Shown in pieces: positions 1 to 63,875 of a stretch of DNA of 63,875 nt. The stretch spans positions 1-63,875 of IMG/VR virus record IMGVR_UViG_3300031975_002169, one strand, 5' to 3'. Origin of the DNA: a virus (lineage: Duplodnaviria; Caudoviricetes). Below the pieces are notes generated by a model that was not told where the DNA came from, searched no databases, and was given only the letters and a program-made list of their open reading frames with translations. The position numbers and the translations under genes were made by a program. Within the stretch, counting starts at the first letter, position 1. Each line of letters begins with the position of its first letter.

Positions 1-280
1 CGTGATGCTCCGCCTCCGGGAAGGCCAACTGGAGCGACCTGGTGAGGACGCCGCTGCCAGCGACGCACCAGACCTCGCTCGGCTCGAGGTCATCGGCGAC
101 CTCCCTGGCATACCTGGCCAGCTCCCCGATGAACTCTGGGCAATCCACGCCGAACGGCACGTTGAAGGCGCCGCTCTCTTCGGCGTACCCCTTCGCGCGC
201 TTCCGCACCTGCGAGAGGTACCCAGGCGCCACGGTGATGACCTGGGCGCCTGCCGCCTCCGCCGCTTTGGTGATCGGGTG
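1..280. repeat. Terminal direct repeat, copy 1 (circularisation overlap)
   Basis: Identical to 63596-63875 except at positions 92, 179, 245 and 266. Confidence 0.97.
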
Positions 281-1441
281 AGCCTCACCGCGCTGCGCGA
301 CCACGATGGTGGCGCGCTTCCCCACCGCGCGAGCTGCCAGGGTGAGGGCGAACCCGTAGGCGGGACCGCCGTAGACGAACTCCTCGTGCTCCGCCCACAC
401 CGTGCGCATCAGGCGCTCGAGGATCACCTGCTTCGTGCCACCCTCCGTTCCCGCGTTGGTCCACACCGCCTTCCCGTCCATCACGAGCAGCCGGTTCTCC
501 TCGGGGACGGCTGGCCCACTCGGCGCCGAGGCGCTGATGGTGGCCCACTGCTCGCGGTTCGCCGCTACCTGCTCGGCGCGCAGCTCGATCCCGGTGTAGG
601 CGCGCCCCACCAGCGCGCTCACCACACCGCGGACGCTGCCGCCGGCGAACGGGTCCAGCACGGAGCCGCCAGCGGGCGAGAACCAGCGCACCATCAGCTC
701 CGTGAGCACGGGATCGAAGATGCTGGTCCCGCTTCCGATCCAGCCACCGCCCTGCGCCTGGTTCCCGTTGGTGAGCAGCGTGTCGTCGCGCCCCAGCTCG
801 CTCTTGATGCCCAGGCCCAGCCACGCGCCCTTCCGCGCACGCCAGTACCCCTGTCGCGCGTCCAGCACGCTGAACGGGGGAGCGCCGAACCTGGAGGCGA
901 GGGTGGTGTGCGCGGCGTCGCGATCGCCCTCGTCCTGCTCCCGCTGCACCCCCTCCTCGGCGAGGAACGCGTCCAAGGCGTCCGTGTCCCACCCGATCAG
1001 CGTCAGCTCGCTGGGCCCGAAGTCGCTGAGAACGTCGGGGAGGAGCGCCGCATCCCAACGCGAGAACTCGCCTAGACGGTTGTCGGCGATGGCGTAGGCG
1101 CGCGCCTCGTGATCGGTGTGGCGCAGCGGCGTGAAGGGGAGGCGGTCGAACACGGTGGCATCCACCGAATCCGGCAGGTGCGCCACGATGTGCTCGATGG
1201 CGGCGAGACGTGTGTGACCAGCCTCGAGGAAGTTGTCCTCCGCGCGCAGGAGCAGCGCGTTGGTCCAGCCGAAGAACAGCATGGACTCCACGACCTTGGG
1301 GATCGCCTCGGCGTTCAGCCTGGGGTTGTCCTTCCAGGGCCGGATGTCCGCGCGCGCCACCATGGGGACGCCGTCCTCGGCGAGCCCCTTGAGGCTCTCG
1401 ACCAGCCGCTTAAGGCGACCTGCCTTGATCTTCTTCGCCAT
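1..1441 (-). CDS. 5' part of ParB-like / amino-DNA methyltransferase / PLP-enzyme fusion (723 aa in total; continues across the junction to 62865)
   Basis: Manual translation from ATG at 1441 (SD-like AAAGGGA upstream): ParB motifs PWKDNPRLN, AGHTRLAA, AYAIADNRLGE; MTase TSIFDPVLTE, motif I VLDPFAGGSVRG, motif II YTGIELRAEQV; then PLP domain GTEGGTK..EFVYGGPAYG..GKRATIVV; open frame in phase with ORF 62865..63827. Confidence 0.88.
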   Translation of the reverse strand, partial: MAKKIKAGRLKRLVESLKGLAEDGVPMVARADIRPWKDNPRLNAEAIPKVVESMLFFGWTNALLLRAEDNFLEAGHTRLAAIEHIVAHLPDSVDATVFDRLPFTPLRHTDHEARAYAIADNRLGEFSRWDAALLPDVLSDFGPSELTLIGWDTDALDAFLAEEGVQREQDEGDRDAAHTTLASRFGAPPFSVLDARQGYWRARKGAWLGLGIKSELGRDDTLLTNGNQAQGGGWIGSGTSIFDPVLTELMVRWFSPAGGSVLDPFAGGSVRGVVSALVGRAYTGIELRAEQVAANREQWATISASAPSGPAVPEENRLLVMDGKAVWTNAGTEGGTKQVILERLMRTVWAEHEEFVYGGPAYGFALTLAARAVGKRATIVVAQRGEAHPITKAAEAAGAQVITVAPGYLSQVRKRAKGYAEESGAFNVPFGVDCPEFIGELARYAREVADDLEPSEVWCVAGSGVLTRSLQLAFPEAEHH

Positions 1442-1512
1442 GCCGTTTCCGATCCCTTTCAACGCACCAACGCCCCGTCACGGTAGCATGATGGGGCGTT
1501 CGCGCGTCGTTT

Positions 1513-1671
1513 TCAGTGATGTGGGGGTGGTGGTGGCTCGTACCTCGTCAGCCTCCGCCCCAGCGCGTTAGCCGTGTCCGCCACGGTGGCCCCTGCCACC
1601 GCCAGCGCGATGCCACCCAACTCCACGAGCTGGAGGCCACGGTAGAGCCCTACGAGTGCCAGGCGCCTCAC
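1513..1671 (-). CDS. Small hydrophobic hypothetical protein (52 aa)
   Basis: GTG overlapping the upstream stop (GTGA); hydrophobic LVELGGIALAVAGA. Confidence 0.4.
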   Translation of the reverse strand: MRRLALVGLYRGLQLVELGGIALAVAGATVADTANALGRRLTRYEPPPPPHH

Positions 1672-2564
1672 CGGCGCACCGGCCAGTCCCGGCGTCGCAC
1701 GTGCTCCGGCCAGTCCGCCATGTCGGCTCCCTTGGGGTGCTCGGTGACGACGTTGGAGTTGGCGCCCATCTGCTTCACGAAGACGGGGACGCGCGCCCTG
1801 TCGCACGCGAGGATCGCCCACTCCGCCCACTGCACACTGAACGGGCGAGCGTTGGGCCCGCTCTCCCCGCCTACGATCACCCAGTGCGGCAGGTTGGGGC
1901 GGTGCGCGAAGCCGAAGTCGATGGGGCCCAGTGCGGGCTCGTAGCTGATGAAGCGGCGCGCCCCGAGGAGGTGCGTCACGGATGCCAGGGACGGCGCGCG
2001 CAGGTCATAGGCGTTCTGGTCCTCCACGCTGACGCCGACGAGGACGTGGCTCAGGCTCCGCACCTTGAAGTCCCTGGGTGTAGTGGCGCCCATGAGGGTG
2101 GTGGCGCACTGCCTCAGCACCTCCTCGGGGGCCTGGGTGCGGAGGTCAGCCTGGTGCGCGAGCCACGATTGGAAGCTTGCCAGGCGAAGCGCACGCTTGG
2201 TGAGCACCTGGAACTCGTGGTGAGGCGCTCCCGCCATGATGCCGAAGAACCCGGCGATCTCCAGGTAGCTGAGGCTCTCGTGGAAGAGGTCCGACATGGA
2301 GTTGACGAAGATGCGCCTGGGCTTGCGCCACCTGAGCGGGTCGGTGATGTGCTCAGGGACGCGGCGCACGTTGCCGTTCCACTGCGCCTTCGGCTTCCCC
2401 TGAGGGTCCAGGCGCAGGAGGCCCTCGTAGGGCCCACCAGGGCCGGCGAAGCGGCGCGCAGTGGCCTCCGCATAGCAGTGCTCACACCCCGTGGAGATGC
2501 GGGAGCACCCGCGGATCGGGTTCCAGGTGGAGTCGGTCCACTCGATGTTCGACGAGTCAGCCAC
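1668..2564 (-). CDS. Phage Gp37/Gp68 family (DUF5131) radical-SAM-like protein
   Basis: IEWTDSTWNPIRGCSRISTGCEHCYAE (CX6CX2C), IFVNSMSDLFH, FQVLTKR, SYEPALG, WVIVGGESG, VFVKQMG. Confidence 0.92.
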   Translation of the reverse strand: MADSSNIEWTDSTWNPIRGCSRISTGCEHCYAEATARRFAGPGGPYEGLLRLDPQGKPKAQWNGNVRRVPEHITDPLRWRKPRRIFVNSMSDLFHESLSYLEIAGFFGIMAGAPHHEFQVLTKRALRLASFQSWLAHQADLRTQAPEEVLRQCATTLMGATTPRDFKVRSLSHVLVGVSVEDQNAYDLRAPSLASVTHLLGARRFISYEPALGPIDFGFAHRPNLPHWVIVGGESGPNARPFSVQWAEWAILACDRARVPVFVKQMGANSNVVTEHPKGADMADWPEHVRRRDWPVRR

Positions 2565-4060: not shown

Positions 4061-4281
4061 GTTTCTCCCTTTCCCCACGCTTTCAGCGCCAGACGCCGAG
4101 CCTCCCTGGTGCACCTGGTGGGGCACCCGCACCCTCGGCCGATCAACCCCCATGGACACGGTTTCACGCCCTCCTCCGCCAGCGTGGTCGCCTTGATGAC
4201 GGCCTGTGCCTGCGTGTAGGCGACCTGGCGCCAGCGCTCCGCCTCGGCCTTCCAGAAGGCCAGTTCCTCGTCCTTGGTCAC
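4057..4281 (-). CDS. Small hypothetical protein (74 aa)
   Basis: Coupled start and stop on both sides; TKDEELAFWKAEAERWR. Confidence 0.5.
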   Translation of the reverse strand: MTKDEELAFWKAEAERWRQVAYTQAQAVIKATTLAEEGVKPCPWGLIGRGCGCPTRCTREARRLALKAWGKGET

Positions 4282-4913
4282 GCTGCCTCGTTTCCGCGTG
4301 CGACCCAGCCTGGGCGCGCCACACGTGAGAAGTACTCCACCCTCGGGCCCCTGCTGACGCGCTCGATCAGCGCGTAACTCTCGGGTGGCTTGCGGGAATG
4401 GATGCGCCTGCCGTTCTCCTTCGGCACAGGGGCGAAGAGCGGGCTCGCCACCCCACGATCGCCACCCCACACCTCGTCGCTCTGGCCCTTGCCGCGCACG
4501 CCGAACAGGAGGATCTCGTGCGCGCCTCGCGCGTACTGGCCGATCCCGATGTCCAGCTTGGGGACGACCCTCTGGCTCACGTAGGGGTCTGGCACCATCA
4601 GGAGCGCGCCCGTCTCGTCGACCTTGACCTTGATCCATGGGTAGGTCCGGACGAATCGGAAGCCGAGCATCGGGTACATGTCCATCCCGCTCTGGAGATA
4701 GTTGTCCGTGACCCAGATCCAGAGGTGGGCATCCTGCGCCGGCGACCACCCCATGGAGCGGATCGCGCCCACCATCGGCTCGGCCACGTTCTTCCCTGGC
4801 TGCCCGAGGGTGGGGTAGTGGTTCTGAGCGCCGCGCCCTCCACCACCGCGCTCGGGCCACGGTGGGTCCGCCAGGTGGCACACGAACTCGGTCTCCCCGA
4901 AGAGGTTCTTCAC
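4278..4913 (-). CDS. MT-A70 family adenine methyltransferase
   Basis: LADPPW, HLWIWVT, HEILLFGVRG, HSRKP, EYFSR..RPGW..RGNE. Confidence 0.9.
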   Translation of the reverse strand: MKNLFGETEFVCHLADPPWPERGGGGRGAQNHYPTLGQPGKNVAEPMVGAIRSMGWSPAQDAHLWIWVTDNYLQSGMDMYPMLGFRFVRTYPWIKVKVDETGALLMVPDPYVSQRVVPKLDIGIGQYARGAHEILLFGVRGKGQSDEVWGGDRGVASPLFAPVPKENGRRIHSRKPPESYALIERVSRGPRVEYFSRVARPGWVARGNEAA

Positions 4914-20518: not shown

Positions 20519-21947
20519 GGTTGGCGCGCAGATCGGGAGCCGTTCCGCCTGTGTCCACGCGCAGATCGAAGCTCGACGAGAGCACGCAAGGCACACGGAA
20601 GATCACCGAGCCGAAGTCGGCGGTCCCCATGTCGGCCGCGTCGTAGAGATCGGCCGCACCACCTCCAACGGGGACGGCTGCCACCGAGGCGCTCACGTTG
20701 GTGGTGGTGTTCGGCTCGATGAGGACGCGCACCAGGGCCCACTTCGCGGACGCCGGGATGCTGGTCCCGAGGGCCACCGTCACAGGGGCGGTGTAGGGGA
20801 CCGCGCTGGCGATCTGAACGGGCTCGCGCATGAAGACGCGATCGCCCTGGCTCTCGGTCCAGATGAACCCGGTGTTCCCGGAGTTGCGCCGGAAGGCGCC
20901 CACCAGCACACCCAGGCCAGCGGCGACGGTGGGCGTCGAGTAGGGCGCTGGCAGCGTGAGGACGCCACCGTTGCGATTCTCACCCTGGCTGCTGGGCGCC
21001 ACGTGGCTGAGCACGAGGACGCCCTTGCCGGTAGCCGATCCGTCCCGAGGATCGACAGGGCACAGGCCCAGGGCCGACCACGGGCAGAGGTACAGGTAGT
21101 ACCAGGTCGAGGCCGCCAGCGTCGTCGCTGGCGAGAGCACGCCAGCCGCCGAGAGGTCGAGCGCGCCGCTGCGCGCGTACCAGAGGCGACGAGTGCCCTG
21201 GGAGAACACCTCGGCGTCCACGATGGCCGAGCTGCTCGCCGCACCACCAGGACGGTGGCTGGTGATCACGAGCCGATCGCCCTGCTGAGCCAGGATGCTC
21301 GACAGCGAGTCCCTACCGCGCTGGAGCTGGTCCCACATGGGGCGCACGTCGATGAGGTGGGAGGTGAGCACCGCCCCACCGCCAGCAGGGCGGAAGACGA
21401 TGGCGATCGGCACCCAGTCACCGCCGCTGGGCGCTGGCGCGTTCGTCGAGGTCCCCGCGATGAACTGGAAATCGATCTGCTTCTCGATGCGCTTCGTGAG
21501 ACCTGGCGTCGGGACGAACGTCTCGGTGCCCGTATCGTAGATGTCGCGCGTAGCCGTGAGCGCGACCACAGAGGCCACTTGGGCCTCGAGCAGGTACCAG
21601 GTGTCCGATCCGGGAGCCGGCGCGGCCTCGGTGACGGTGCCCAGGTTGGCGCCGAGCCGGTAGGGCGAGTCCAGCGTCCCAGGCACAGGGACGAGCACCG
21701 CCGAGTCCTGGAGCAGCGCACCTGCCGCCACCGCGACGTCGTTGCCGCTCGGCGACACCTCCAGGCCACCGAGCACCACGTTCCGAGGGCTCTCCGAGGG
21801 CCGAGCGCCGAACGAGAAGCTCCTCAGGCCCAGCGCCTCCCGGAACACGTTCATCAGGGTGCGCGCTGCCAACGACTGCCCGTCGTTGAAGTCGCCGCTG
21901 GTGGCGCGCTCGTTGGTGTTGAAGACGATGCTGTCGTTGCCGCTCAT
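20499..21947 (-). CDS. Tail fibre / baseplate-attached virion protein
   Basis: 482 aa beta-rich protein at the end of the baseplate module. Confidence 0.6.
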   Translation of the reverse strand: MSGNDSIVFNTNERATSGDFNDGQSLAARTLMNVFREALGLRSFSFGARPSESPRNVVLGGLEVSPSGNDVAVAAGALLQDSAVLVPVPGTLDSPYRLGANLGTVTEAAPAPGSDTWYLLEAQVASVVALTATRDIYDTGTETFVPTPGLTKRIEKQIDFQFIAGTSTNAPAPSGGDWVPIAIVFRPAGGGAVLTSHLIDVRPMWDQLQRGRDSLSSILAQQGDRLVITSHRPGGAASSSAIVDAEVFSQGTRRLWYARSGALDLSAAGVLSPATTLAASTWYYLYLCPWSALGLCPVDPRDGSATGKGVLVLSHVAPSSQGENRNGGVLTLPAPYSTPTVAAGLGVLVGAFRRNSGNTGFIWTESQGDRVFMREPVQIASAVPYTAPVTVALGTSIPASAKWALVRVLIEPNTTTNVSASVAAVPVGGGAADLYDAADMGTADFGSVIFRVPCVLSSSFDLRVDTGGTAPDLRANLIGWVE

Positions 21948-21954
21948 GGGTGCC

Positions 21955-23235
21955 TCACAGGGTGGTGTCTAGCGCGATCGCGAAGCCGACGCCGCCAGCG
22001 CGAGCAGCGTTGACGGCTGCCCAGGCTGCGCCGATGGTGCCCAGGTAGGTCCAGGGCCGGCCGTCGAAGAAGTTGGTGAGCGTCGCCGGCGTCACGGCGT
22101 CCAGCGCATTGTCGATGTAGCCCGGTGCCGCTGCGTCGAGCGCGAACCCACTCTCGCCCGCGTTCCCCAGGCCCACGCACACCAGGAAGAACCTGGTGAG
22201 CGGCGCGAAGCGCCCTCCGGGGAAAGCGTGGCCACCAGCGTCCAGTGGGCTCACGTCCAGCACCATCCCGAACATGCCAGCCGGGTCCCGCGTCTCCTTG
22301 AGCACCCATGGGATCCCCGCTGGGGTGAGGATGCCGTGGAGAATGCGCATGATGGCCAGGGGGGATACCACATCCGGCAGCTCGCAGATCCGCGACCGGA
22401 ACGAGGCGTCGCTCTCGCCGAGCTGCCGGTAGACCAGCCGGTCTCGGCCGATCGACTCCAGCCACGCGTCCAGCCCACCGGACGCCGCGCTCCCCTGCGT
22501 CACCGTGAGCCCCAGATCCTCGAACTCGAGAACCTCCGCCGTGCCAGCGCCAGCCGCGAGCGCCGCACCCTCCAGCGTGGCCACCTGGCCCAGCACGTCC
22601 ACGATCCGTCGCACCGTCCCGAGGTTGGGCCCCGAGCGGAAGGCGAGGAACTGGCCCACCTGGCCAGCGTGGAAGCGATCCCCGCTCCCAGCATTCGTCA
22701 CCAGCGTGTCCGAGCCCGTCGCCGTGGCATCCGTGACCACCGCGCTACCACGCAGGACGAAGGCAGAGATGCTCCCTGGGCCCACGTTGCCCAGGTAGCC
22801 CACCTGGGTGCAGCGCACCGGGAGCGATACCGATGGCGTACCGGCAGGGAGCGTCGTGGCCTCGCTGACCACGAACTGGAGCCCCTCTCGGTACTCGCCT
22901 CGCGTGTCTCGGTACACCACCACGACAGTGGTCCCCTGGACCAGCTCGATGTCGAAGCTGGCATCCCCGCTGCGCTCCAGGTCCAACGTGGCCACCGCTG
23001 AGGCAGGTCCGCTCGCCGGAGCGCTCTGCTGGAGCGTGTGGGGCTTGAGGTAGTACCGCTGCGTCGTCTCGCGGATCGCCTCGTCCACGCGCGCGAAGAT
23101 GGCGCTATAGGCAGCCACCGTGTCCAGGCCCTCCCCGCCGGACTCCTCCTCCATGGGGCGTGTGTAGGCGCGCGGGAAGAGCCGACGCCAGAGGTCCAGG
23201 TAGTCCGCGTCGGTCCACTGTCGGGGAATCGTCAC
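21955..23235 (-). CDS. Baseplate wedge protein (second J-like subunit)
   Basis: LPVRCTQVGYLGNV, LESIGRDR..RQLGESDASFRSRI. Confidence 0.65.
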   Translation of the reverse strand: MTIPRQWTDADYLDLWRRLFPRAYTRPMEEESGGEGLDTVAAYSAIFARVDEAIRETTQRYYLKPHTLQQSAPASGPASAVATLDLERSGDASFDIELVQGTTVVVVYRDTRGEYREGLQFVVSEATTLPAGTPSVSLPVRCTQVGYLGNVGPGSISAFVLRGSAVVTDATATGSDTLVTNAGSGDRFHAGQVGQFLAFRSGPNLGTVRRIVDVLGQVATLEGAALAAGAGTAEVLEFEDLGLTVTQGSAASGGLDAWLESIGRDRLVYRQLGESDASFRSRICELPDVVSPLAIMRILHGILTPAGIPWVLKETRDPAGMFGMVLDVSPLDAGGHAFPGGRFAPLTRFFLVCVGLGNAGESGFALDAAAPGYIDNALDAVTPATLTNFFDGRPWTYLGTIGAAWAAVNAARAGGVGFAIALDTTL

Positions 23236-46538: not shown

Positions 46539-48155
46539 TCAGACCTTCGTCTTGGCCTCGACCTCGTCCTCTTCGTCCGGGTCGCCGGGGAGCTTGGCGC
46601 TGGCCTCTGTCACGCGCGTGATGGACTCCACCTCGCGCTCCATGGCGCGCTCCCCATCCGCCTCGATCGCTGCCAGCTCGGCGTCCACGTCCTCCACGCC
46701 GAACAGGTCCGCCACCGCCTTGAGGCTGGTCTTGTGGCTGAGAACAGGCTTCCCGCCGTTCGCCGACATCACGCTTGCCGCTGCCGCTTGCTTGTCGGTC
46801 CAGGTGGGAGCGAAGTAGGTGGGCCACGTGAGCGTCACCGTCTCGCCGCTGCCGAGCTTGGGGGTGCGCAGCTCCTTGGCGACGTCCCCTGGCTCCCCAT
46901 CCTCCGAGGCGCTCGCCTCCAGCACAGGGCGGAGCTTCACCGACTCCGGTGGCAGCGTGCGCGCCTGCCGAAGCAGGCCCTCGAGTGTGCGTGTGATGCC
47001 TGGTCCGTACACCTCGCGCAGCTCGTCGCACCTGGCCGTCTGGGGGGCGTAGAGCAGGCGGAGGGCCGCTGCGCTCTGCGCCGCGCCGCTGATCTTCTCG
47101 GCGTCCGCGTCGATGACCTGGGAGGCGGCGAGCACACCAGCGCGCACCTGAGCCGCCGTCTCAGCGGCGGTGCGCGCGGCGTCGCCCTTGACCTCCAGGT
47201 AGTCCGCGCCACCAGGGGCGAAGATCGCGTGACCCTGGCCCTTCTTCACGACGCCAGGGTTGTTCCGCCGCTCGTCCTTGATCACCAACGTGGGATCCGC
47301 GTTGGCGAGGACGCCCTTGCTGGCGCCGCTGACGAGACGGTTGATCTCGTCCATGTTCGGGCCCTGCTCGTGGTAGTCGCACTCGCCGTCCACGCGCTCG
47401 GTGTCGCTGGTGTTCTGGATCCAAGCCACCGGACAAGCGTCGCCGGGGACCAGGGCGAAGCGGCTGGGCTCCACGCGCGAGCGCCAGTAGGGGAGGTTCG
47501 CGATCTCGGCCGGGACGGCGTCCCAGACGATGTCCTGGGTGGGGTCCCAGTACCGGACGTACCAGAACGAGCGGTCGGTGTAGGTCTTGGCGTCCTCGTC
47601 CCAGACGCGCGTCTGGTAGGAATACGCCTTCACGCACGCCAGCGGGATGAGGTCGTTGCGATCCGCCCAGGCCAAGACCTGGCAGTGCTTCGCGTTGTGC
47701 ACCTCGATCACGGGCTTCCCGTTGGAGAAGCCCCAGGAGAGCACCACCGAGCCCACACTGCCGCCCTTCCGGCGAGCCTCGATCATGCGAGGCCAGAGCT
47801 TGGCGTCGCGCGCGCACGCGCGCACCCAGGCCTCTGTCTCCTCGTCGCCATCCACCGTGATCTGCGGCGTGTTCCCGCTGCCGAAGAGCATGTTCGTGAG
47901 GCGCCCCACGATGGTGCGCGCCACGGGGACGGTGGTGCTGGGGCACCGCTCCGAGAGCGGCACGTACCAGCCAGGCTTGATCGCCGCTTCCTCGCCGAGC
48001 CCGCGGAAGTAGCCGTTCCAGTCGTACTTCTTCCCGTCGTCCTGGGTGCAGCGGTAGTAAGACTCCTGGCGATCGAGGCGCTGGAGACGCGCCTGGTCCA
48101 TCAGCTCGGGGAGCCGCGCGTTGGGGATCATCGGGGGCAGGGGGGACAGCGCCAC
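46539..48155 (-). CDS. Portal protein
   Basis: 538 aa directly upstream of gp7-like; ARTIVGRLTNMLFG, SGAAQSAAALRLLY, LTWPTYF, ELAAIEAD. Confidence 0.82.
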   Translation of the reverse strand: MALSPLPPMIPNARLPELMDQARLQRLDRQESYYRCTQDDGKKYDWNGYFRGLGEEAAIKPGWYVPLSERCPSTTVPVARTIVGRLTNMLFGSGNTPQITVDGDEETEAWVRACARDAKLWPRMIEARRKGGSVGSVVLSWGFSNGKPVIEVHNAKHCQVLAWADRNDLIPLACVKAYSYQTRVWDEDAKTYTDRSFWYVRYWDPTQDIVWDAVPAEIANLPYWRSRVEPSRFALVPGDACPVAWIQNTSDTERVDGECDYHEQGPNMDEINRLVSGASKGVLANADPTLVIKDERRNNPGVVKKGQGHAIFAPGGADYLEVKGDAARTAAETAAQVRAGVLAASQVIDADAEKISGAAQSAAALRLLYAPQTARCDELREVYGPGITRTLEGLLRQARTLPPESVKLRPVLEASASEDGEPGDVAKELRTPKLGSGETVTLTWPTYFAPTWTDKQAAAASVMSANGGKPVLSHKTSLKAVADLFGVEDVDAELAAIEADGERAMEREVESITRVTEASAKLPGDPDEEDEVEAKTKV

Positions 48156-51699: not shown

Positions 51700-53337
51700 T
51701 CACCGGAAGAGAGGGTCCGCCTGTCGCGGGTCCTGCTCCCCATCACCAGCCTCGAGCCCCTCGATGTAGATGCGCGCCTCCTCGCGGGCGAACCAGCTCG
51801 CCATCAGCCTGTCGCCGGTGTGCGACTTGGGGGTGTACCCACGCATCTCGCGGATCCATGCGCGGATCTCGTCGTTGGCTGGCTCGCCCCCCTGGGTGGC
51901 AGGGATCACCCAGCGCGTCGCGCGCATCTCCACCGCCATCGTCTCCACACCGAAGTCCTCGGAGTGCTTCCCGCGCTTGCCGGTGCTGGTGGTGCTGAAC
52001 GGGATCACCGGGACGCCGCGCCCCTGCGCGAACTGGGCGATGAACGCCTGGGCAGCCACGGACTCCACCACGACGGTGCTCTGGTAGCGGATGTGGTGCT
52101 GGACGATGCGCTGGACGATCTCGGGGCCCTGCCAGCGCCCCGATTCGACGTTGACCACCAGGTAGCGTCGGTCCGGCAGGATGGCGATCGTGAAGAGCAC
52201 CGTGAGGTCGCTGTCCTCGTCCTGGCCCACCCCGAGGTCGACGCCGGTGTAGCAGGGGAGCAGCGGGCCTCCCCAGAAGGCCGTCGGTGCCTCGTCCAGG
52301 AAGCCACGCCCGAGCCCTTGCGCCAGGCAGGCGCGAATCCACGCCTCCTGGAATCGCGACGAGGCGTCCGAGTACGGCTTGCAGAGCCGCTTCCGCGCGA
52401 ACGCGGACGGCGTCATGTTGGCTGCGTCCTCCCGCAGCTCCTCCACCGGAATCGCCTCGGGCCAGAGCGCCTCCCAGCGGTCCTCTGGCGCCTCCGGGTT
52501 CAGGACGGCGCTCCAGACCTGCATCCCCCACGCTGGCCTCGAGCCCAGCGTGTGGAGCAGGTCTTCCTCGTGCCACGGCGTCCCTATGCACCAGACGCGG
52601 AAGCGCGTCTTGTCCCCCTGCGCGCGCGACTTGCGCCCCCTGGGGCCCTTGCGCGTGAAGACCTTGGTGTCGAACCAGCTCAGCGTCTTGGCGCGCTGCT
52701 CGGGGCTGGACGTGTTCTCCATGTCCAGCACATCATCGAGCACCACCACGTCCAGGCGTGCGCCCGTGATCGCCTTGGAGCCCGCACCGTAGGCGGCGAC
52801 GCTGGGATCCTTGGCGATGGTGGTGCGCGCGACGGTGCACTCGTGCGCGTTCCACTTCGCGCCCTTCTTCGGCACCAGGTGCGGGAAGACCTCGCGGACC
52901 CTGGGGTTGTGGAGGATGTGCGCCTGGACCTGCGCCAGCCGATCCATCGCCTGCCCATCGGTGGCGCAGATGATGGCGATGCGCGCGTTCGGGTTCTTCC
53001 CGAGGTGGTAGAGGATCCGTCCGACGATCTGCTGGGTCTTGCCGTGACCCACAGGCGCCATGATCACGCCGTAGCGGTTGCGGTCGAAGAACGCCTGCCA
53101 CTCCTCGTGATAGTCGGCGTTCTCGATGCTGTCGCCGGACTCCTCGTCCGGCATCGCGTACTCGATGAACGCGCTGGCGCCCACCACCGCATCCGGGAAG
53201 CCAACGATCTCCTCCCCGCGCGCCTGCCGGAGGTGGAGCTGACGCAGCGCCCGCGTTCGCTCCACCAACTCGGGCGCGCTGAGCTTCTCCAGCTCGACCC
53301 AGGGTGCAACCTCCTGGAGCGTCAGGAGCGAGGTCAC
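51700..53337 (-). CDS. terL: Terminase large subunit
   Basis: Walker A APVGHGKT, ITGARLDVVVLDD, IGTPWHEEDL, nuclease GVDLG..D, HTGDRLMASW. Confidence 0.93.
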   Translation of the reverse strand: MTSLLTLQEVAPWVELEKLSAPELVERTRALRQLHLRQARGEEIVGFPDAVVGASAFIEYAMPDEESGDSIENADYHEEWQAFFDRNRYGVIMAPVGHGKTQQIVGRILYHLGKNPNARIAIICATDGQAMDRLAQVQAHILHNPRVREVFPHLVPKKGAKWNAHECTVARTTIAKDPSVAAYGAGSKAITGARLDVVVLDDVLDMENTSSPEQRAKTLSWFDTKVFTRKGPRGRKSRAQGDKTRFRVWCIGTPWHEEDLLHTLGSRPAWGMQVWSAVLNPEAPEDRWEALWPEAIPVEELREDAANMTPSAFARKRLCKPYSDASSRFQEAWIRACLAQGLGRGFLDEAPTAFWGGPLLPCYTGVDLGVGQDEDSDLTVLFTIAILPDRRYLVVNVESGRWQGPEIVQRIVQHHIRYQSTVVVESVAAQAFIAQFAQGRGVPVIPFSTTSTGKRGKHSEDFGVETMAVEMRATRWVIPATQGGEPANDEIRAWIREMRGYTPKSHTGDRLMASWFAREEARIYIEGLEAGDGEQDPRQADPLFR

Positions 53338-61564: not shown

Positions 61565-62875
61565 CGTGGTCCCCTTCCGTGTGCAGCCGGTGCTGAACCA
61601 GGGAGGTGGCGCCCACGAGCTGCCAGAGCTGCTCGTGGCCCTGGACGAGCCCGAAGTAGGTGGCGACGCCCCTGCCTTCGGACAGGACCACGGCGAGCGC
61701 GACGTTGGTGACGCGCCCAGCCTCCACCTCAGCCGCCACCTGGCGCAGCCGCTCGGCGATCGCCAGCCTGTCCGCCGTGCCGCAGTCCAGCTTGATGACG
61801 CGCCCGCTGCACCAGGACGCGTGCTCACCGGCGCTTCCGCAACACTCGAGGATCCCAGCGGTCTCGTTGGTGGTGGGGAACGAGACATCGCCGCAAGCCG
61901 AGCAGCGCGCCCACCCGTTGCCCTGGTCGACCACCTCTGGGTGGGTGCACTCGACGTTATGAGGCATCGGGCGCCTCGCGCAGGGTGGCATCCGTGACGT
62001 TGGTGAGCATGATGGTGGCGACCCCAGCGCCCACATCGTAGGCGCCCTCGATCGCCGGCGCAGTGCACCACTCGGGGCCCTGGGGGTGCACTGCGATCCC
62101 CAGCTCCTCGAGGATCAGCTTGAGCCGGTTCGCCTCGGACACTAGGTCCACCGGGCTCACCACCGCCACCACATGCGGGAAGGGGAGCGCGCCCTCCATC
62201 TGGCCCTTCCCGTTGCCGGAGTCGGTGGTCTTGTACCCCAGCGCGCGGAGCAACGCGACGACGCACACCATGCCAGTGGGCAGGTCGACCGGTGAGTGCG
62301 CGGAGCAGACGTAGCCCTCCTTGGGGTGTCTGGCGATCTTGGCGCACCCAGTGCACCCATACGCAGCCCCGCCCCTGCCGAGGTACATGGCTTTACTGAT
62401 CACGTGTGCGCCCCTTTCAGCTCCTCGTATGCGGCGATCATCCCCGCTACGTCGCCCTCAGCCATGGCCTTCGCCGCCGCATCGAGCGCCGCCCTCATCC
62501 ACGTGACGGCGAAGATCCCGGCAGGGCCGATCTCCAGGTAGACGGGGATCACCTCGTCGCGCACGCGCGCCATCTCCTTGGGAAGCTCGGTTCCCAGGCT
62601 CTTCGTCTCCTCGTCCATCACGACACCGCCCTTTCAACGCGCTTCTCCGACCGGAACGACAGGATGCAGCCTAGCCCATCCCTCACCGTGAGCTTGGTGG
62701 GCACCCAGGCGACCTGGTGGTGGGGCCACATCTCGAGCACACCGCCCACCTCCACCACGACCCCATGAGGCGTCACCTGTAGGAGCTGGGCGCTGGTGAG
62801 GCGCACCATGGTGGAGCTGGTGGTGAACCCGCGACCCACCGGCTCCACGCGCGTCACCGTGACCTCAGCCTTCAT
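61554..62875 (-). other. Four small hypothetical CDS (61554-61967, 61957-62403, 62400-62621, 62618-62875)
   Basis: Overlapping ORFs linking the ParB-MTase-PLP gene to the putative TerS. Confidence 0.6.
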
Positions 62876-63875
62876 CGCCCGTCTCCTGGTCTGGGATGGT
62901 GAAGTCCGGCGTCCCGCACGCCTCGGTCGCCAGCTTGGGGTCGCCCTTGACGAAGATGAGGACGTTCTGGTGGCCCTTGCCGAGCTTGCGGGATGCCTCG
63001 AAGATTTTGCCGCTTCGGCGAGGCAGCGACCCCACCGGCGTCACCAGGACGGCCTCGTTGTAGAACCGCGCTCCTGCCGCTTCGAAGGCACGGATGGTGT
63101 CCGGGACGAACCCCAGATAGGCGCCATCGGGCCCACGCACCTCCCCCACCACCCACACGAGGAAGCGGTTCGGCTTGAGCGCCTGGACGGCCGCCTGGAT
63201 GATGGCTCCGTAGGCTGGGCGGAACTCGGGGTAGGCGAGCGTGCTGAGATCGCGCTCGTCGTCGCTGTAACGCTCGAGGTCAGCGTAGGGTGGGCAGCTC
63301 AGCACCAGATCGAAGCTCTCGTCCACCAGGTCCAGGAGGTCTCGGCTGTCGCCCTCGATCCAGCGCGCGCTCCCGTGCGCAGTGCCGCTGGGCGCGGAGC
63401 CACCCACATCGCCGGCGACGTTCCACAGGAGCGCGCCTGGGGCGGCCTCCTCCTGGAAGAAGCGCCACGCCTTGGCGTCGTAGTTCGAGGCGCTGGCGAA
63501 CGGTGGCTTGATCTTGGCGTCCTGCGCGAACTTCTCGGGTGCCTTATGGACCGTGGCGCTCCCGGTGTCGGAGCCCTCCTTGCCCACCACGATGGCGTGA
63601 TGCTCCGCCTCCGGGAAGGCCAACTGGAGCGACCTGGTGAGGACGCCGCTGCCAGCGACGCACCAGACCTCGCTCGGCTCGAGGTCGTCGGCGACCTCCC
63701 TGGCATACCTGGCCAGCTCCCCGATGAACTCTGGGCAATCCACGCCGAACGGCACGTTGAAGGCGCCGCTCTCCTCGGCGTACCCCTTCGCGCGCTTCCG
63801 CACCTGCGAGAGGTACCCAGGCGCCACGGTGATGACCTGAGCGCCTGCCGCCTCCGCCGCCTTGGTGATCGGGTG
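62865..63875 (-). CDS. 3' part of the ParB-MTase-PLP fusion: end of PLP fold-II domain, then catalytic half of an N4/N6 MTase
   Basis: EVWCVAGSGVLTRSL (Gly-rich phosphate loop), NYDAKAW, LLWNVAG; then motif III WIEGDS and motif IV DLVLSCPPY (63285-63299), FYNEAVL, KLGKGHQNVLIFVKGDP. Confidence 0.88.
   Translation of the reverse strand, partial: HPITKAAEAAGAQVITVAPGYLSQVRKRAKGYAEESGAFNVPFGVDCPEFIGELARYAREVADDLEPSEVWCVAGSGVLTRSLQLAFPEAEHHAIVVGKEGSDTGSATVHKAPEKFAQDAKIKPPFASASNYDAKAWRFFQEEAAPGALLWNVAGDVGGSAPSGTAHGSARWIEGDSRDLLDLVDESFDLVLSCPPYADLERYSDDERDLSTLAYPEFRPAYGAIIQAAVQALKPNRFLVWVVGEVRGPDGAYLGFVPDTIRAFEAAGARFYNEAVLVTPVGSLPRRSGKIFEASRKLGKGHQNVLIFVKGDPKLATEACGTPDFTIPDQETGDEG
63596..63875. 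repeat. Terminal direct repeat, copy 2
   Basis: Matches 1-280 with 4 mismatches (63687, 63774, 63840, 63861). Confidence 0.97.

What the first reader, a model, noticed from the sequence alone, without database searches (positions are those of the whole stretch)
1..1441. ParB-fused DNA methyltransferase with a PLP-dependent enzyme inserted inside its catalytic domain: candidate new DNA base hypermodification system
SEEN: joining the ends gives one 723-aa minus-strand ORF (1441 to 1, then 63595 to 62865) that the ORF track misses. Domain order is ParB-like (NPR, GHTR, ADNR); MTase motifs I-II (DPFAGGS, GIELR); a roughly 230-aa insert (GGTK with Lys337 at nt 431-433, EFVYGGPAYG, GKRATIVV, GYLS, PFG, VAGSG, NYDAKAW, WNVA); then MTase motifs III-IV (GDS, SCPPY). 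KNOWN: this insert pattern fits fold-type II PLP enzymes and, from recall, the phage family that includes the thymidine-hypermodification decarboxylases M6 gp52 and ViI gp226. ParB-MTase genes near terminase genes have been proposed to modify DNA in connection with packaging. INFERENCE: I see none of the usual partners (dUMP hydroxymethylase, 5hmU kinase, amino acid:DNA transferase), so the PLP domain probably acts on an adduct made by its own host domain. One option is SAM-derived aminocarboxypropyl transfer to A or C followed by decarboxylation or elimination.
Basis: partly seen in the sequence, partly recalled or inferred. Interest (0 to 1): 0.92.

Follow-up and report, generated by a model that had tools for sequence, protein, structure and literature searches.

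The report
PLP enzyme inside phage DNA methylase
A phage gene that runs across the two ends of this record encodes a DNA-methylase-like enzyme with a small vitamin-B6 enzyme in one loop; that enzyme is related to ones that trim amino acids attached to phage DNA, which points to an undescribed way of decorating DNA bases.

Summary
The window ends overlap by 280 bp (276 identical; the 4 differences are synonymous). An independently assembled 63,625-bp contig and database protein P0001 give the same 723-aa minus-strand ORF. Its order is: ParB-like domain, amino-MTase motifs I-II, a 237-aa fold-type II PLP domain, then MTase motifs III-IV (CPPY).

The insert belongs to phrog_7093. That family includes phage M6 gp52, a proven PLP decarboxylase of amino acids tethered to DNA bases. 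Lys337 aligns with gp52 Lys36.

The pairing recurs. This PLP protein is present in 48 of 80 related viral loci and 40 of 79 bacterial (prophage) loci. It occurs as an insert, as a separate gene just downstream or upstream, or between split ParB and MTase genes. The insert arose at least twice. The window has no 5-hmU pathway genes.

A two-enzyme DNA-modification module is therefore well supported, but its chemistry is not. My best guess (about 0.35) is SAM-derived aminocarboxypropyl transfer to a base amine, followed by decarboxylation. Three points count against it:
- MTase motifs are identical in complete phages that lack the PLP gene.
- The insert sits on low-confidence linkers at a permissive junction.
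- The window's own PLP domain lacks the RDD motif.

My literature searches found no description.

The parts
1..1441 (-). 5' part of the 723-aa ORF (residues 1-480 and the first base of codon 481); ATG at 1439-1441
62865..63595 (-). 3' part of the ORF (rest of codon 481 to residue 723, stop TGA at 62865-62867)
63596..63875 (.). terminal overlap: a second copy of window 1-280 (276/280 identical, 4 synonymous differences); marks a circular or circularly permuted genome with a 63,595-bp unit
1037..1369 (-). ParB/Srx-like N-terminal domain (residues 25-135; NPR, GHTR, ADNR)
   Evidence: PHROG phrog_15396 E 2.2e-25 and phrog_620 E 1.1e-24; Foldseek BFVD hits to ParB proteins; Pfam ParB_N not reported for P0001 itself
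776..895 (-). conserved module PPFSVLD..W..RK..W..LGI.SE.GR (residues 183-222). In split relatives it stays with the ParB ORF. A disordered linker follows (224-239, pLDDT<50).
527..724 (-). MTase N half (residues 240-305): FDPV helix, motif I DPFAGGS (nt 635-655), motif II GIELR, helix alphaB
   Evidence: Pfam PF01555 profile 170-217, 37.9 bits for P0001; invariant columns
1..508 (-). PLP (PALP) insert, first part (residues 312-480): GGTK with Lys337 at 431-433, GSG loop at 50-58
63393..63595 (-). PLP insert, second part (residues 481-548): Y519-D-A-K522 at 63471-63482, WNVAG
62892..63374 (-). MTase C half (residues 555-715): motif III GDS, motif IV SCPPY (CPPY at 63285-63296), motifs V-VIII
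   Evidence: Pfam PF01555 profile 2-110; phrog_12517 profile 156-313; invariant D563, C581, P582, P583

Best explanation
One real 723-aa phage enzyme with three parts: a ParB-like DNA-targeting domain, an amino-type (N6-A/N4-C class) SAM methylase core with motif IV CPPY, and a compact PLP enzyme of the M6 gp52 family spliced into the loop between MTase motifs II and III. It is the fused form of a widespread phage and prophage module (ParB, MTase core and mini-PLP enzyme) that usually sits ahead of the packaging genes.

Shown: the architecture, the homologies, the recurrence of the pairing in several gene orders, and the absence of the 5-hmU route.

Inferred mechanism: the MTase-like core flips out a base and transfers the 3-amino-3-carboxypropyl group of SAM (not, or not only, the methyl) to its exocyclic amine. 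The PLP domain (Schiff base at Lys337) then decarboxylates this DNA-tethered alpha-amino acid, as gp52 does on thymine adducts. That would leave a cationic 3-aminopropyl base. The ParB domain would confine the reaction to phage DNA around packaging.

The confidence given (0.35) is for this chemistry. That the protein is a genuine ParB-MTase with an inserted gp52-family PLP domain, coupled in function, I put at about 0.9.
For: - ORF and junction.
- MTase: PF01555 at 37.9 bits (cut-off 26.7) for P0001. DPFAGGS, acidic motif II, GDS and CPPY are invariant or nearly so in 64 aligned relatives.
- PLP fold: AF2 model with pLDDT 87.6. The Foldseek PDB hits listed at ranks 1-49 are all fold-type II PLP enzymes, for example 1j0a with TM 0.57 and rmsd 3.5. 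PALP passes Pfam's cut-off in relatives P0002 (55.5 bits) and P0115 (44 bits).
- gp52 kinship: M6 gp52 matches phrog_7093 at E 2e-159. The window's two insert pieces hit the same family at E 9e-16 and 7e-21. hhalign of A1 against gp52 gives probability 97.8%, E 7.7e-13, over 218 columns. K337 aligns with K36, and the motifs PF(P)....YD.KAW and FWN.G are shared. tblastn with a free-standing neighbour PLP protein finds M6 and 37 other Pseudomonas phage records with the same 24-25% match to the gp52 region.
- gp52 and ViI gp226 decarboxylate C-alpha-GlyT and O-SerT in DNA (PMC8989533, passages read).
- Catalytic residues kept: Lys in 79 of 80 PLP-bearing relatives by pattern, with the 80th having GSK. 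G462, S463 and K522 are invariant.
- Coupling: PLP present in 48 of 80 IMG/VR loci (about 22 inserts, 22 separate ORFs directly downstream, 2 upstream, 1 at 1.3 kb, 1 separate ORF on a cut contig). PLP present in 40 of 79 genome loci (3 inserts, 34 downstream, 3 between a ParB ORF and an MTase-core ORF). In L047 the GTG start of the PLP gene overlaps the MTase stop (GTGA).
- PLP tree: two deep clades, both with inserts. The window's insert is nested (97 SH-aLRT) among separate-gene forms, so there were at least 2 insertions at the same site.
- No other amino-acid source: no Thymidylat_synt match, no M6 gp51 or gp54 homologue, and no such family among 63 window ORFs.
- No further gene with a family match is tied to the PLP-bearing loci; those identified are terminase and portal, and two small clusters seen only there (a 202-aa ORF in 8 loci, a 274-aa opposite-strand ORF in 10 of 11) have no Pfam match.
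- From recall, not tested here: class I MTase folds are known to transfer aminocarboxypropyl or aminopropyl groups (TYW2, spermidine synthase).
Against: - The MTase catalytic motifs are the same in relatives with and without the PLP protein. No alignment column separates 46 PLP-linked from 22 PLP-less MTases; the largest frequency difference is 0.6. The two kinds are intermixed on the MTase tree (quick tree with a weak backbone).
- Ten of 10 PLP-less records searched whole have no PLP gene anywhere, and 6 of them are rated 100% complete (positive control). The MTase therefore works alone, and the simplest reading is that it methylates.
- A prophage ParB-MTase, BCE_0392, gave m6dA in E. coli by LC-MS (PMC3459991). 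I could not verify that it belongs to this CPPY family.
- The insert is joined by two linkers with pLDDT<50 (309-314, 548-550), and pTM is only 0.56. No fixed two-site geometry is predicted.
- The window's own PLP domain has TNA where 94% of 80 relatives have RDD. R and D there are invariant in 41 free-standing representatives.
- P0001's PALP score (32.3 bits) is under Pfam's cut-off of 35.
- No aminocarboxypropyl or aminopropyl DNA base is reported in the papers I could search.
Confidence: 0.35

Rival explanations
1. Ordinary methylation plus a cofactor-level PLP role. The CPPY core simply makes m6A (or m4C) on phage DNA. The gp52-like enzyme acts on a nucleoside-tethered amino acid that is not on DNA, namely SAM or SAH. 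It might decarboxylate or break down SAH to relieve product inhibition during a burst of methylation. Or it might alter or deplete SAM to blunt SAM-dependent host defences.
For: - MTase motifs are unchanged and there are no discriminating columns between PLP-linked and PLP-less relatives.
- Complete PLP-less phages exist, so the PLP protein is an optional accessory.
- m6dA is reported for the ParB-MTase BCE_0392 (PMC3459991).
- SAM and SAH are, like gp52's substrates, alpha-amino acids hung on a nucleoside (inference).
- Flexible linkers suit a partner that needs only to be nearby.
Against: - The only characterised members of the PLP family act on DNA-borne substrates.
- No precedent known to me for a PLP enzyme that clears SAH.
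- A SAM-destroying domain fused to a SAM-using one is self-defeating.
- Repeated independent fusions, twice into the same loop, suggest more than loose metabolic help.
Confidence: 0.3
2. The PLP domain is itself the transferase. As a fold-type II beta- or gamma-replacement enzyme it forms an aminoacrylate (from Ser, O-acetyl- or O-phospho-Ser, or Cys) or a vinylglycine-type intermediate (from SAM). The amine of a base flipped out by the MTase core attacks this intermediate, giving an alanyl or aminocarboxypropyl base. The MTase core serves as the base-flipping scaffold.
For: - The closest solved folds include O-phosphoserine and O-acetylserine sulfhydrylases.
- From recall: cysteine-synthase-like enzymes alkylate free nucleobase-like heterocycles (willardiine, lupinic acid).
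- Tight pairing with a base-flipping enzyme.
Against: - The characterised relatives are decarboxylases.
- At the place of the substrate-carboxylate 'asparagine loop' of the sulfhydrylases (TSGNT), this family has PaeGgAQ.
- The SAM-binding motifs of the MTase are fully kept, which a mere scaffold would not need.
Confidence: 0.12
3. The insert in this particular phage is a non-catalytic relic: a structural or DNA-contacting module at the place where alpha-class methylases carry their target-recognition domain. The protein would then be just a methylase.
For: - The window's subclade has lost the RDD motif that is otherwise nearly invariant.
- Its PALP score is below Pfam's cut-off.
- The insertion site is a permissive junction.
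Against: - Lys337, the GSG loop, Y519, K522 and WN are all retained.
- The 4 strain differences inside the insert are all synonymous.
- The model is confident across the insert (pLDDT mostly >90).
- RDD-less relatives (P0003, P0037, P0040, P0050) keep the same residues.
Confidence: 0.08
4. Assembly artefact: the joined ORF does not exist in any real molecule.
For: IMG/VR classes the record as linear with CheckV completeness 72%. The overlap is not exact.
Against: - An independent assembler's 63,625-bp contig carries the junction internally, and a contig from a second sample crosses window position 1.
- P0001 is in the database as one protein.
- Contiguous homologues have the same order.
- All 4 overlap differences are synonymous.
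Confidence: 0.01

Closest known systems
Phage M6 gp52 (and ViI gp226): PLP-dependent decarboxylases of amino-acid:nucleobase conjugates in DNA (PMC8989533)
   Same: Same PHROG family (phrog_7093). Profile match at probability 97.8%. The Schiff-base Lys is aligned (K337 with K36). Shared C-terminal motifs PF....YD.KAW and FWN.G. Compact size, about 235-280 aa.
   Different: gp52 is a free-standing protein in a cluster with a 5-hmdU kinase, an amino-acid:DNA transferase, a radical SAM isomerase and a thymidylate-synthase homologue. None of those is in this window. Identity is only about 17-25%. gp226 was not compared here.
ParB-methylase fusions of the phage ParB-terminase locus, e.g. B. cereus prophage BCE_0392 (PMC3459991, PMC3592412, PMC4738411)
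   Same: N-terminal ParB-like domain fused to an amino-MTase, encoded ahead of the packaging genes. Terminase large subunit and portal lie directly downstream in related loci. In the window, TerL is 9.5 kb downstream on the same strand.
   Different: The described examples carry no PLP domain. BCE_0392 is reported to make weak m6dA and to nick DNA. I could not check whether it has the CPPY motif.
Erythrobacter phage vB_EliS-R6L ORF1 (KY006853); also ZS04, Microcystis phage Mae-JY30, Pseudanabaena phage Pam4
   Same: In R6L and ZS04 the match covers 94-95% of P0001 at 43-44% identity as one annotated methylase gene. Mae-JY30 (ParB and methylase annotated as separate features) and Pam4 carry the same parts; their layout was not checked. 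In R6L the gene likewise lies at the record's end.
   Different: Annotated only as 'DNA modification methylase' with a CcrM-like domain. The PLP insert is not mentioned in the R6L paper (passages read). No DNA chemistry is reported.
SAM aminocarboxypropyl and aminopropyl transferases (TYW2, Tsr3, TapT, spermidine synthase). From recall, except TapT (abstract in the listing).
   Same: What the proposed first step would work like: nucleophilic attack on C-gamma of SAM, with MTA leaving. Some of these enzymes have a class I MTase fold.
   Different: All known examples act on RNA or small molecules. No sequence kinship was tested. Nothing here shows that the CPPY core binds SAM in the required pose.
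ParB-dependent phage T-dioxygenases (PMC13229309)
   Same: A ParB-like protein recruited to a phage DNA base-modifying enzyme, often near terminase genes (passages).
   Different: There ParB is a separate activator of an Fe/2OG dioxygenase. Here it is fused to, or encoded just ahead of, a SAM enzyme. No Tet_JBP match in the window (which had no positive control).

Membership tests
N6/N4 amino DNA methyltransferase (Pfam PF01555) | Profile score over the curated cut-off | tested here: met
   P0001 scores 37.9 bits against a cut-off of 26.7. The two halves match profile 170-217 and 2-110, so the order is circularly permuted relative to the model.
N6/N4 amino DNA methyltransferase (Pfam PF01555) | SAM-binding motifs I (FxGxG type), II (acidic residue) and III (Asp) | tested here: met
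   DPFAGGS, GI(E/D)LR and GDS. D263, P264, F265, G267, G268 and D563 are invariant in 64 relatives.
N6/N4 amino DNA methyltransferase (Pfam PF01555) | Motif IV (D/N/S)PP(Y/F) | tested here: inconclusive
   PPY is invariant, but the first residue is Cys (CPPY) in this protein and in all 120 relatives examined. In the two solved MTases aligned at this motif, S or D stands there.
N6/N4 amino DNA methyltransferase (Pfam PF01555) | Transfers a methyl group to DNA | not testable with these tools
   The only data are for BCE_0392 (weak m6dA; PMC3459991), whose membership in this family is unverified.
Fold-type II PLP enzymes (Pfam PF00291 PALP) | Profile score over the curated cut-off | tested here: not met
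   P0001 scores 32.3 bits against a cut-off of 35. Relatives P0002 (55.5) and P0115 (44) pass.
Fold-type II PLP enzymes (Pfam PF00291 PALP) | The fold | tested here: met
   AF2 model with pLDDT 87.6. The Foldseek PDB hits listed at ranks 1-49 are all fold-type II PLP enzymes, with E as low as 1e-9.
Fold-type II PLP enzymes (Pfam PF00291 PALP) | Schiff-base lysine and glycine-rich phosphate loop | tested here: met
   Lys337 (GGTK) is kept in all 80 PLP-bearing relatives, 79 by pattern plus one GSK. The GSG loop aligns with the GTGG loop of O-acetylserine sulfhydrylase. G462 and S463 are invariant.
Fold-type II PLP enzymes (Pfam PF00291 PALP) | Binds PLP | not testable with these tools
   Needs purified protein.
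gp52/gp226 family of DNA-acting PLP decarboxylases (phrog_7093) | Family profile match | tested here: met
   E 8.9e-16 and 7.2e-21 for the two window pieces. gp52 itself scores 2e-159, and free-standing neighbours score 6e-55 to 4e-28. hhalign probability 97.8%.
gp52/gp226 family of DNA-acting PLP decarboxylases (phrog_7093) | Genomic partners: 5-hmU source, 5-hmdU kinase, amino-acid:DNA transferase | tested here: not met
   No Thymidylat_synt match (control positive in 10 of 14 genomes). No M6 gp51 or gp54 homologue (single-sequence searches). No Tet_JBP match (no positive control). None among 63 ORFs scanned.
gp52/gp226 family of DNA-acting PLP decarboxylases (phrog_7093) | Decarboxylates a DNA-tethered alpha-amino acid | not testable with these tools
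   Inferred from homology only.
ParB/Srx N-terminal domain | Profile match and GxxR motif | tested here: inconclusive
   PHROG ParB families match at E 2e-25 and 1e-24, and BFVD ParB folds match. Pfam ParB_N is not reported for P0001 at E<=0.1. No PDB sequence hit. GHTR is present.
ParB-terminase-locus methylases (Iyer et al., PMC4738411) | Encoded beside the terminase and packaging genes | tested here: inconclusive
   In related loci TerL and portal lie directly downstream. In the window TerL (51700-53337) is 9.5 kb downstream on the same strand, with many small ORFs between.
ACC deaminase / D-cysteine desulfhydrase family (TIGR01275) | Family score over cut-off | tested here: not met
   Relatives score 26-33 bits against a cut-off of 289. 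P0001 has no hit at all. It is only the nearest cellular subfamily by motif and fold (1j0a).

The most novel reading that the evidence does not exclude
The CPPY 'methylases' of the phage ParB-terminase locus do not (only) methylate. They transfer the aminocarboxypropyl arm of SAM onto an exocyclic amine of adenine or cytosine in phage DNA. Where the gp52-like PLP enzyme is present, the adduct is decarboxylated to a cationic 3-aminopropyl base.

That would be the first SAM-derived amino-alkyl hypermodification of DNA. It would also be the first gp52-type pathway not built on 5-hydroxymethyluracil, written by a single polypeptide and carried by hundreds of phages and prophages.
Probability: 0.3. 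Interest if true: 0.92.

Novelty: new variant of a known kind. Interest (0 to 1): 0.8.

Why it matters
Known phage DNA hypermodifications that use gp52-type PLP enzymes all start from 5-hydroxymethyluracil and need a kinase and an amino-acid:DNA transferase. Here the same PLP family is tied to a SAM enzyme instead, with no other partner. The tie takes several forms: fusion, insertion (at least twice), overlapping start and stop codons, and conserved adjacency.

If the pair makes a new base, three things follow:
- It extends hypermodification to purines or cytosine by a two-step, one-protein route.
- It gives a compact tool for site-directed amino-alkylation of DNA.
- It explains a large class of 'methylases' next to terminase genes whose activity has been hard to detect.

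The question is directly testable. The module is in cultured phages (R6L, ZS04, Mae-JY30, Pam4) and in prophages of cultured Alphaproteobacteria.

If the enzyme turns out only to methylate, the PLP partner still needs an explanation, and the finding becomes a curiosity of domain architecture.

Tried and rejected
- **Complex prediction.** I folded a free-standing PLP protein with its neighbouring MTase core (L047 pair, alignments A4 and A5). Result: no verdict (scores 0.11 and 0.23, mark 0.32; controls not run). This is not evidence either way.
- **Distance between the two active sites.** The model's coordinates are not given to the script box, so I could not measure Lys337 to CPPY.
- **DUF5131 as a third partner.** The upstream neighbour (1668-2564) has no homologue in any of the 80 viral loci by tblastn at 1e-4. 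Rejected as a conserved partner.
- **A conserved third gene.** Clustering of 4,428 ORFs from the 80 loci gave spurious overlapping frames, terminase and portal, plus two small clusters seen only or almost only in PLP-bearing loci (a 202-aa ORF, 8 loci; a 274-aa opposite-strand ORF, 10 of 11) that have no Pfam match and may reflect related phages or a shadow frame.
- **Specificity-determining positions in the MTase.** None found.
- **ParB domain against PDB sequences.** Nothing significant.
- **Tet_JBP search of the window.** Empty, but the control rang nowhere, so it is weak.
- **BCE_0392.** I could not obtain its sequence, so its m6dA result is only possibly relevant.
- **ViI gp226.** Not fetched. 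Kinship rests on the paper's statement that it is homologous to gp52.
- **Literature.** None returned a paper describing a PLP domain in or beside a DNA methylase, or an aminocarboxypropyl or aminopropyl DNA base. The library lacks most subscription journals.
- **MTase tree.** The careful tree did not finish in time. The quick tree was used, and its backbone is weak.
- **Read evidence.** The runs are kept as contigs only, all from one study, and the best holder may be the source sample.
Full report
**The ORF and the junction**

The window is a whole IMG/VR virus record of 63,875 bp with 69% G+C. Its first 280 bases recur at 63596-63875 with 276 identical.

Two minus-strand frames run off the ends: 2..1462 (open at its 3' end) and 62865..63875 (open at its 5' end). 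A protein search with the first piece returned P0001, 723 aa and 100% identical. P0001 begins with the translation of 2-1441(-) and ends with that of 62868-63875(-).

The four differences between the two copies of the overlap are all synonymous in this frame. That is what two strains of one coding sequence would give.

Contigs from public runs support the junction. A 63,625-bp contig made by another assembler carries window 1-1500 at its internal positions 20605-22104. A 1,852-bp contig from a second sample of the same study runs 889 bases past window position 1. The first run may be the source sample, and all runs come from one study, so this is a second assembler rather than a second discovery. 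63,625 equals the 63,595-bp unit plus 30 bases; I read the 30 as an assembler end overlap (recalled k=31, shown by no call).

**Domain order**

- Residues 25-135 are ParB-like. PHROG ParB families match at E 2e-25 and 1e-24, and ParB folds match in BFVD. Pfam's ParB_N model does not report P0001 itself.
- Residues 183-222 form a very conserved module (PPFSVLD..W..RK..W..LGI.SE.GR). A disordered linker follows.
- Residues 240-305 carry MTase motif I (DPFAGGS) and motif II (GIELR).
- Residues 555-715 carry motif III (GDS), motif IV (SCPPY) and the rest of the core.
- Pfam PF01555 passes its cut-off at 37.9 bits. The two halves match the model in swapped order (profile 170-217, then 2-110).
- A PHROG family of insert-free relatives (phrog_12517) matches up to profile position 152 before the insert and from position 156 after it. 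This fixes the insertion point to a few residues.
- The insert lies after helix alphaB and before strand beta3. In the alignments to solved beta-class methylases, their chains begin shortly before the GD-PPY stretch and end just after motifs I-II. So this is a naturally permissive junction.

**The insert is a PLP enzyme**

- Residues 312-548 hit Pfam PALP at 32.3 bits, just under the cut-off of 35. Relatives P0002 and P0115 pass at 55.5 and 44 bits.
- An AlphaFold2 model built on 64 relatives has mean pLDDT 87.6. The insert is mostly above 90.
- The Foldseek hits listed at ranks 1-49 in the PDB are all fold-type II PLP enzymes: O-phosphoserine sulfhydrylase, diaminopropionate ammonia-lyase, the Pyrococcus ACC-deaminase homologue 1j0a (TM 0.57, rmsd 3.5), D-cysteine desulfhydrase and others.
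- Lys337 (nt 431-433) sits in GGTK. A lysine at this place is present in all 80 PLP-bearing relatives among the top 120 hits (79 by pattern, one as GSK).
- G462, S463 (the phosphate loop, aligned with GTGG of O-acetylserine sulfhydrylase) and K522 are invariant. Y519 is nearly so.
- Caveat specific to this window: positions 328-330 read TNA where 94% of relatives have RDD. R and the second D are invariant in 41 free-standing representatives. The window belongs to a small subclade (with P0003, P0037, P0040, P0050) that has lost this motif but keeps everything else.

**Kinship with the DNA-acting decarboxylases**

I fetched M6 gp52 (annotated 'threonine dehydratase').

- It is the type of PHROG family phrog_7093 (E 2e-159), the same family that both window pieces hit (8.9e-16 and 7.2e-21).
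- A profile of 64 relatives aligns to gp52 over 218 columns with probability 97.8% and E 7.7e-13. It places Lys337 on gp52 Lys36 and shows the shared C-terminal motifs PF....YD.KAW and FWN.G.
- The paper on thymidine hypermodification names K36 as the likely aldimine lysine. It shows that purified gp52 and gp226 are yellow PLP proteins that decarboxylate C-alpha-glycinyl-thymine and O-serinyl-thymine in DNA, and that gp226 was modelled on 1j0a (PMC8989533, passages read).
- In the cultured-phage collection, a free-standing member of the family found only the four methylase-linked phages and 38 M6-like or related phages (42 records).
- I did not compare gp226 itself.

**The pairing is widespread and takes several forms**

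- Of the 120 best protein relatives, 80 carry the PLP domain at the same place.
- A scan of IMG/VR found at least 581 loci with the family's motifs, and I examined the best 80. An HMM of the insert finds the PLP protein in 48 of these 80. The layouts are: about 22 in-frame inserts, 22 separate ORFs of about 215-250 aa directly downstream, 2 directly upstream, 1 at 1.3 kb downstream, and 1 separate ORF on a cut contig.
- In L047 the GTG start of the PLP gene overlaps the methylase stop (GTGA), the usual sign of coupled translation.
- In one genome per bacterial species, 366 loci were found. Of the best 79, 40 have the PLP protein: 3 as inserts, 34 downstream, and 3 between a ParB ORF and an MTase-core ORF. 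These include cultured Sinorhizobium, Gemmobacter, Thioclava, Pseudorhodobacter, Puniceibacterium and Rhizobium strains.
- A profile search of 1.84 billion representatives gives 2,537 family members at E<=0.001. Of the best 150, 111 are free-standing proteins of about 235 aa. The rest are fusions: inserted, C-terminal or N-terminal to the methylase, or joined to YunG or DUF3102 domains.
- On a tree of the PLP domains there are two deep clades. One ('GGK', closer in motif to ACC deaminase) is made up of inserts only. In the other ('GGTK') most members are separate genes, and the window's insert sits inside a 97%-supported group that also holds downstream and upstream forms. The same loop of the methylase was therefore invaded at least twice.
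- Such repeated fusion is strong evidence that the two enzymes work together.

**What else is, and is not, nearby**

- In related loci the next genes are terminase large subunits (three different families) and portals. This matches the 'ParB-terminase locus' whose methylases were predicted to modify DNA during packaging (PMC4738411).
- In the window TerL is at 51700-53337 and the portal at 46539-48155. Both are on the same strand, 9.5 kb and more downstream.
- No further gene with a family match is tied to the PLP protein; two small clusters seen only or almost only in PLP-bearing loci have no Pfam match.
- The window has no thymidylate-synthase homologue, no homologue of M6 gp51 or gp54 and no Tet_JBP match (weak because there was no positive control). 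Among 63 ORFs scanned against Pfam there is no radical SAM, kinase or transferase of the 5-hmU pathways.

**How it most likely works**

gp52-type enzymes need a primary alpha-amino acid hung on a nucleobase. In this module the only bound molecule that could supply one is SAM.

My best single mechanism has two steps. First, the MTase-like core transfers the aminocarboxypropyl arm of SAM to the exocyclic amine of a flipped-out adenine or cytosine. Second, the PLP domain decarboxylates it to an aminopropyl group. Class I MTase folds that do such transfers are known (TYW2, spermidine synthase; recalled, not tested).

I put this at about 0.35 because several results pull the other way:
- The catalytic motifs are the same with and without the PLP partner.
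- No alignment column separates 46 PLP-linked from 22 PLP-less cores.
- The two kinds are intermixed on the (weakly resolved) MTase tree.
- Ten of 10 PLP-less records searched whole, six of them rated 100% complete, have no PLP gene (positive control). So the core is self-sufficient, and the economical reading is that it methylates.
- A prophage ParB-methylase, BCE_0392, gave weak but LC-MS-verified m6dA in E. coli. An earlier study saw no transfer of tritiated methyl in vitro, according to the same paper (PMC3459991). I could not check whether it is a CPPY member.
- The insert is joined through two short stretches with pLDDT<50, and pTM is 0.56. No fixed channel between the two sites is predicted.

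**Rival readings**

- Plain methylation, with the PLP enzyme acting on SAM or SAH: 0.3.
- The PLP domain as a beta- or gamma-replacement transferase onto the flipped base: 0.12.
- A non-catalytic relic in this RDD-less subclade: 0.08.
- The remainder is unknown chemistry.

**Novelty**

The parts are known families, and ParB-methylase fusions near terminases are known. The same architecture sits in cultured phages, labelled simply as a methylase. The R6L paper calls ORF1 a CcrM-like DNA modification methylase and does not mention the PLP part.

I did not find, in ten full-text searches, any description of a gp52-type PLP enzyme coupled to a SAM methylase, or of an aminocarboxypropyl or aminopropyl DNA base. 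The library misses most subscription journals, and supplements were closed.

I class it as a new variant of a known kind. It has a real chance (about 0.3) of being a new hypermodification pathway.

Noticed in passing
window 1668-2564 (-): DUF5131 (phage gp37/gp68) protein, Pfam E 2e-62 and phrog_2045 E 2e-73, with a C-x6-C-x2-C motif near the N terminus and a faint hit to 'radical SAM mobile pair protein A'. It lies 227 nt upstream of the methylase gene. No homologue turned up in any of the 80 related viral loci.
   Followed up: partly
window 4278-4913 (-): A second DNA methylase of the MT-A70 type (Pfam E 7e-12; phrog_359 E 4e-27), so the phage carries at least two methylase-like genes.
   Followed up: no
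window 1-63875 (ORFs not mapped): One or more ORFs match MoxR/AAA_5 (bpMoxR E 1e-56) and VWA domains (VWA_CoxE, VWA_2). This is a MoxR-VWA pair inside a phage genome. PD-(D/E)XK nuclease, DUF968 and two baseplate J proteins are also present (tally).
   Followed up: no
L107 3839-6418; also L101, L138, L088: In many prophages the 'ParB-methylase' is two ORFs. ORF1 is ParB plus the PPFSVLD..RK..GR module. ORF2 is the methylase core, in another frame. The split falls at the linker that is disordered in the window's protein. 27 of 79 genome loci show this ParB-MTn | MTc pattern.
   Followed up: partly
L091 3806-6165; also L143, L153: The PLP gene lies between the ParB ORF and the methylase-core ORF. 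This is a fourth gene order for the same three parts.
   Followed up: partly
P0193, P0187, P0150 (YunG); P0152, P0163 (DUF3102): The same mini-PLP domain is also fused to YunG-like and DUF3102 domains of unknown function. These contexts could help to define its substrate.
   Followed up: no
window 446-454 (residues 330-328): The window's PLP domain reads TNA where 94% of 80 relatives have RDD (RED in gp52). Five other relatives share the loss.
   Followed up: partly
window 63285-63296 and all relatives: Motif IV is CPPY, not D/N/SPPY, in all 120 relatives examined, with or without the PLP protein. A cysteine at the position that normally contacts the target amine is unusual and unexplained.
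   Followed up: partly
KY006853 (Erythrobacter phage R6L) record start: The homologous gene is also cut by the start of that GenBank record ('<3..2423', 830 aa in the paper's table). As here, the record's end falls inside this gene.
   Followed up: no
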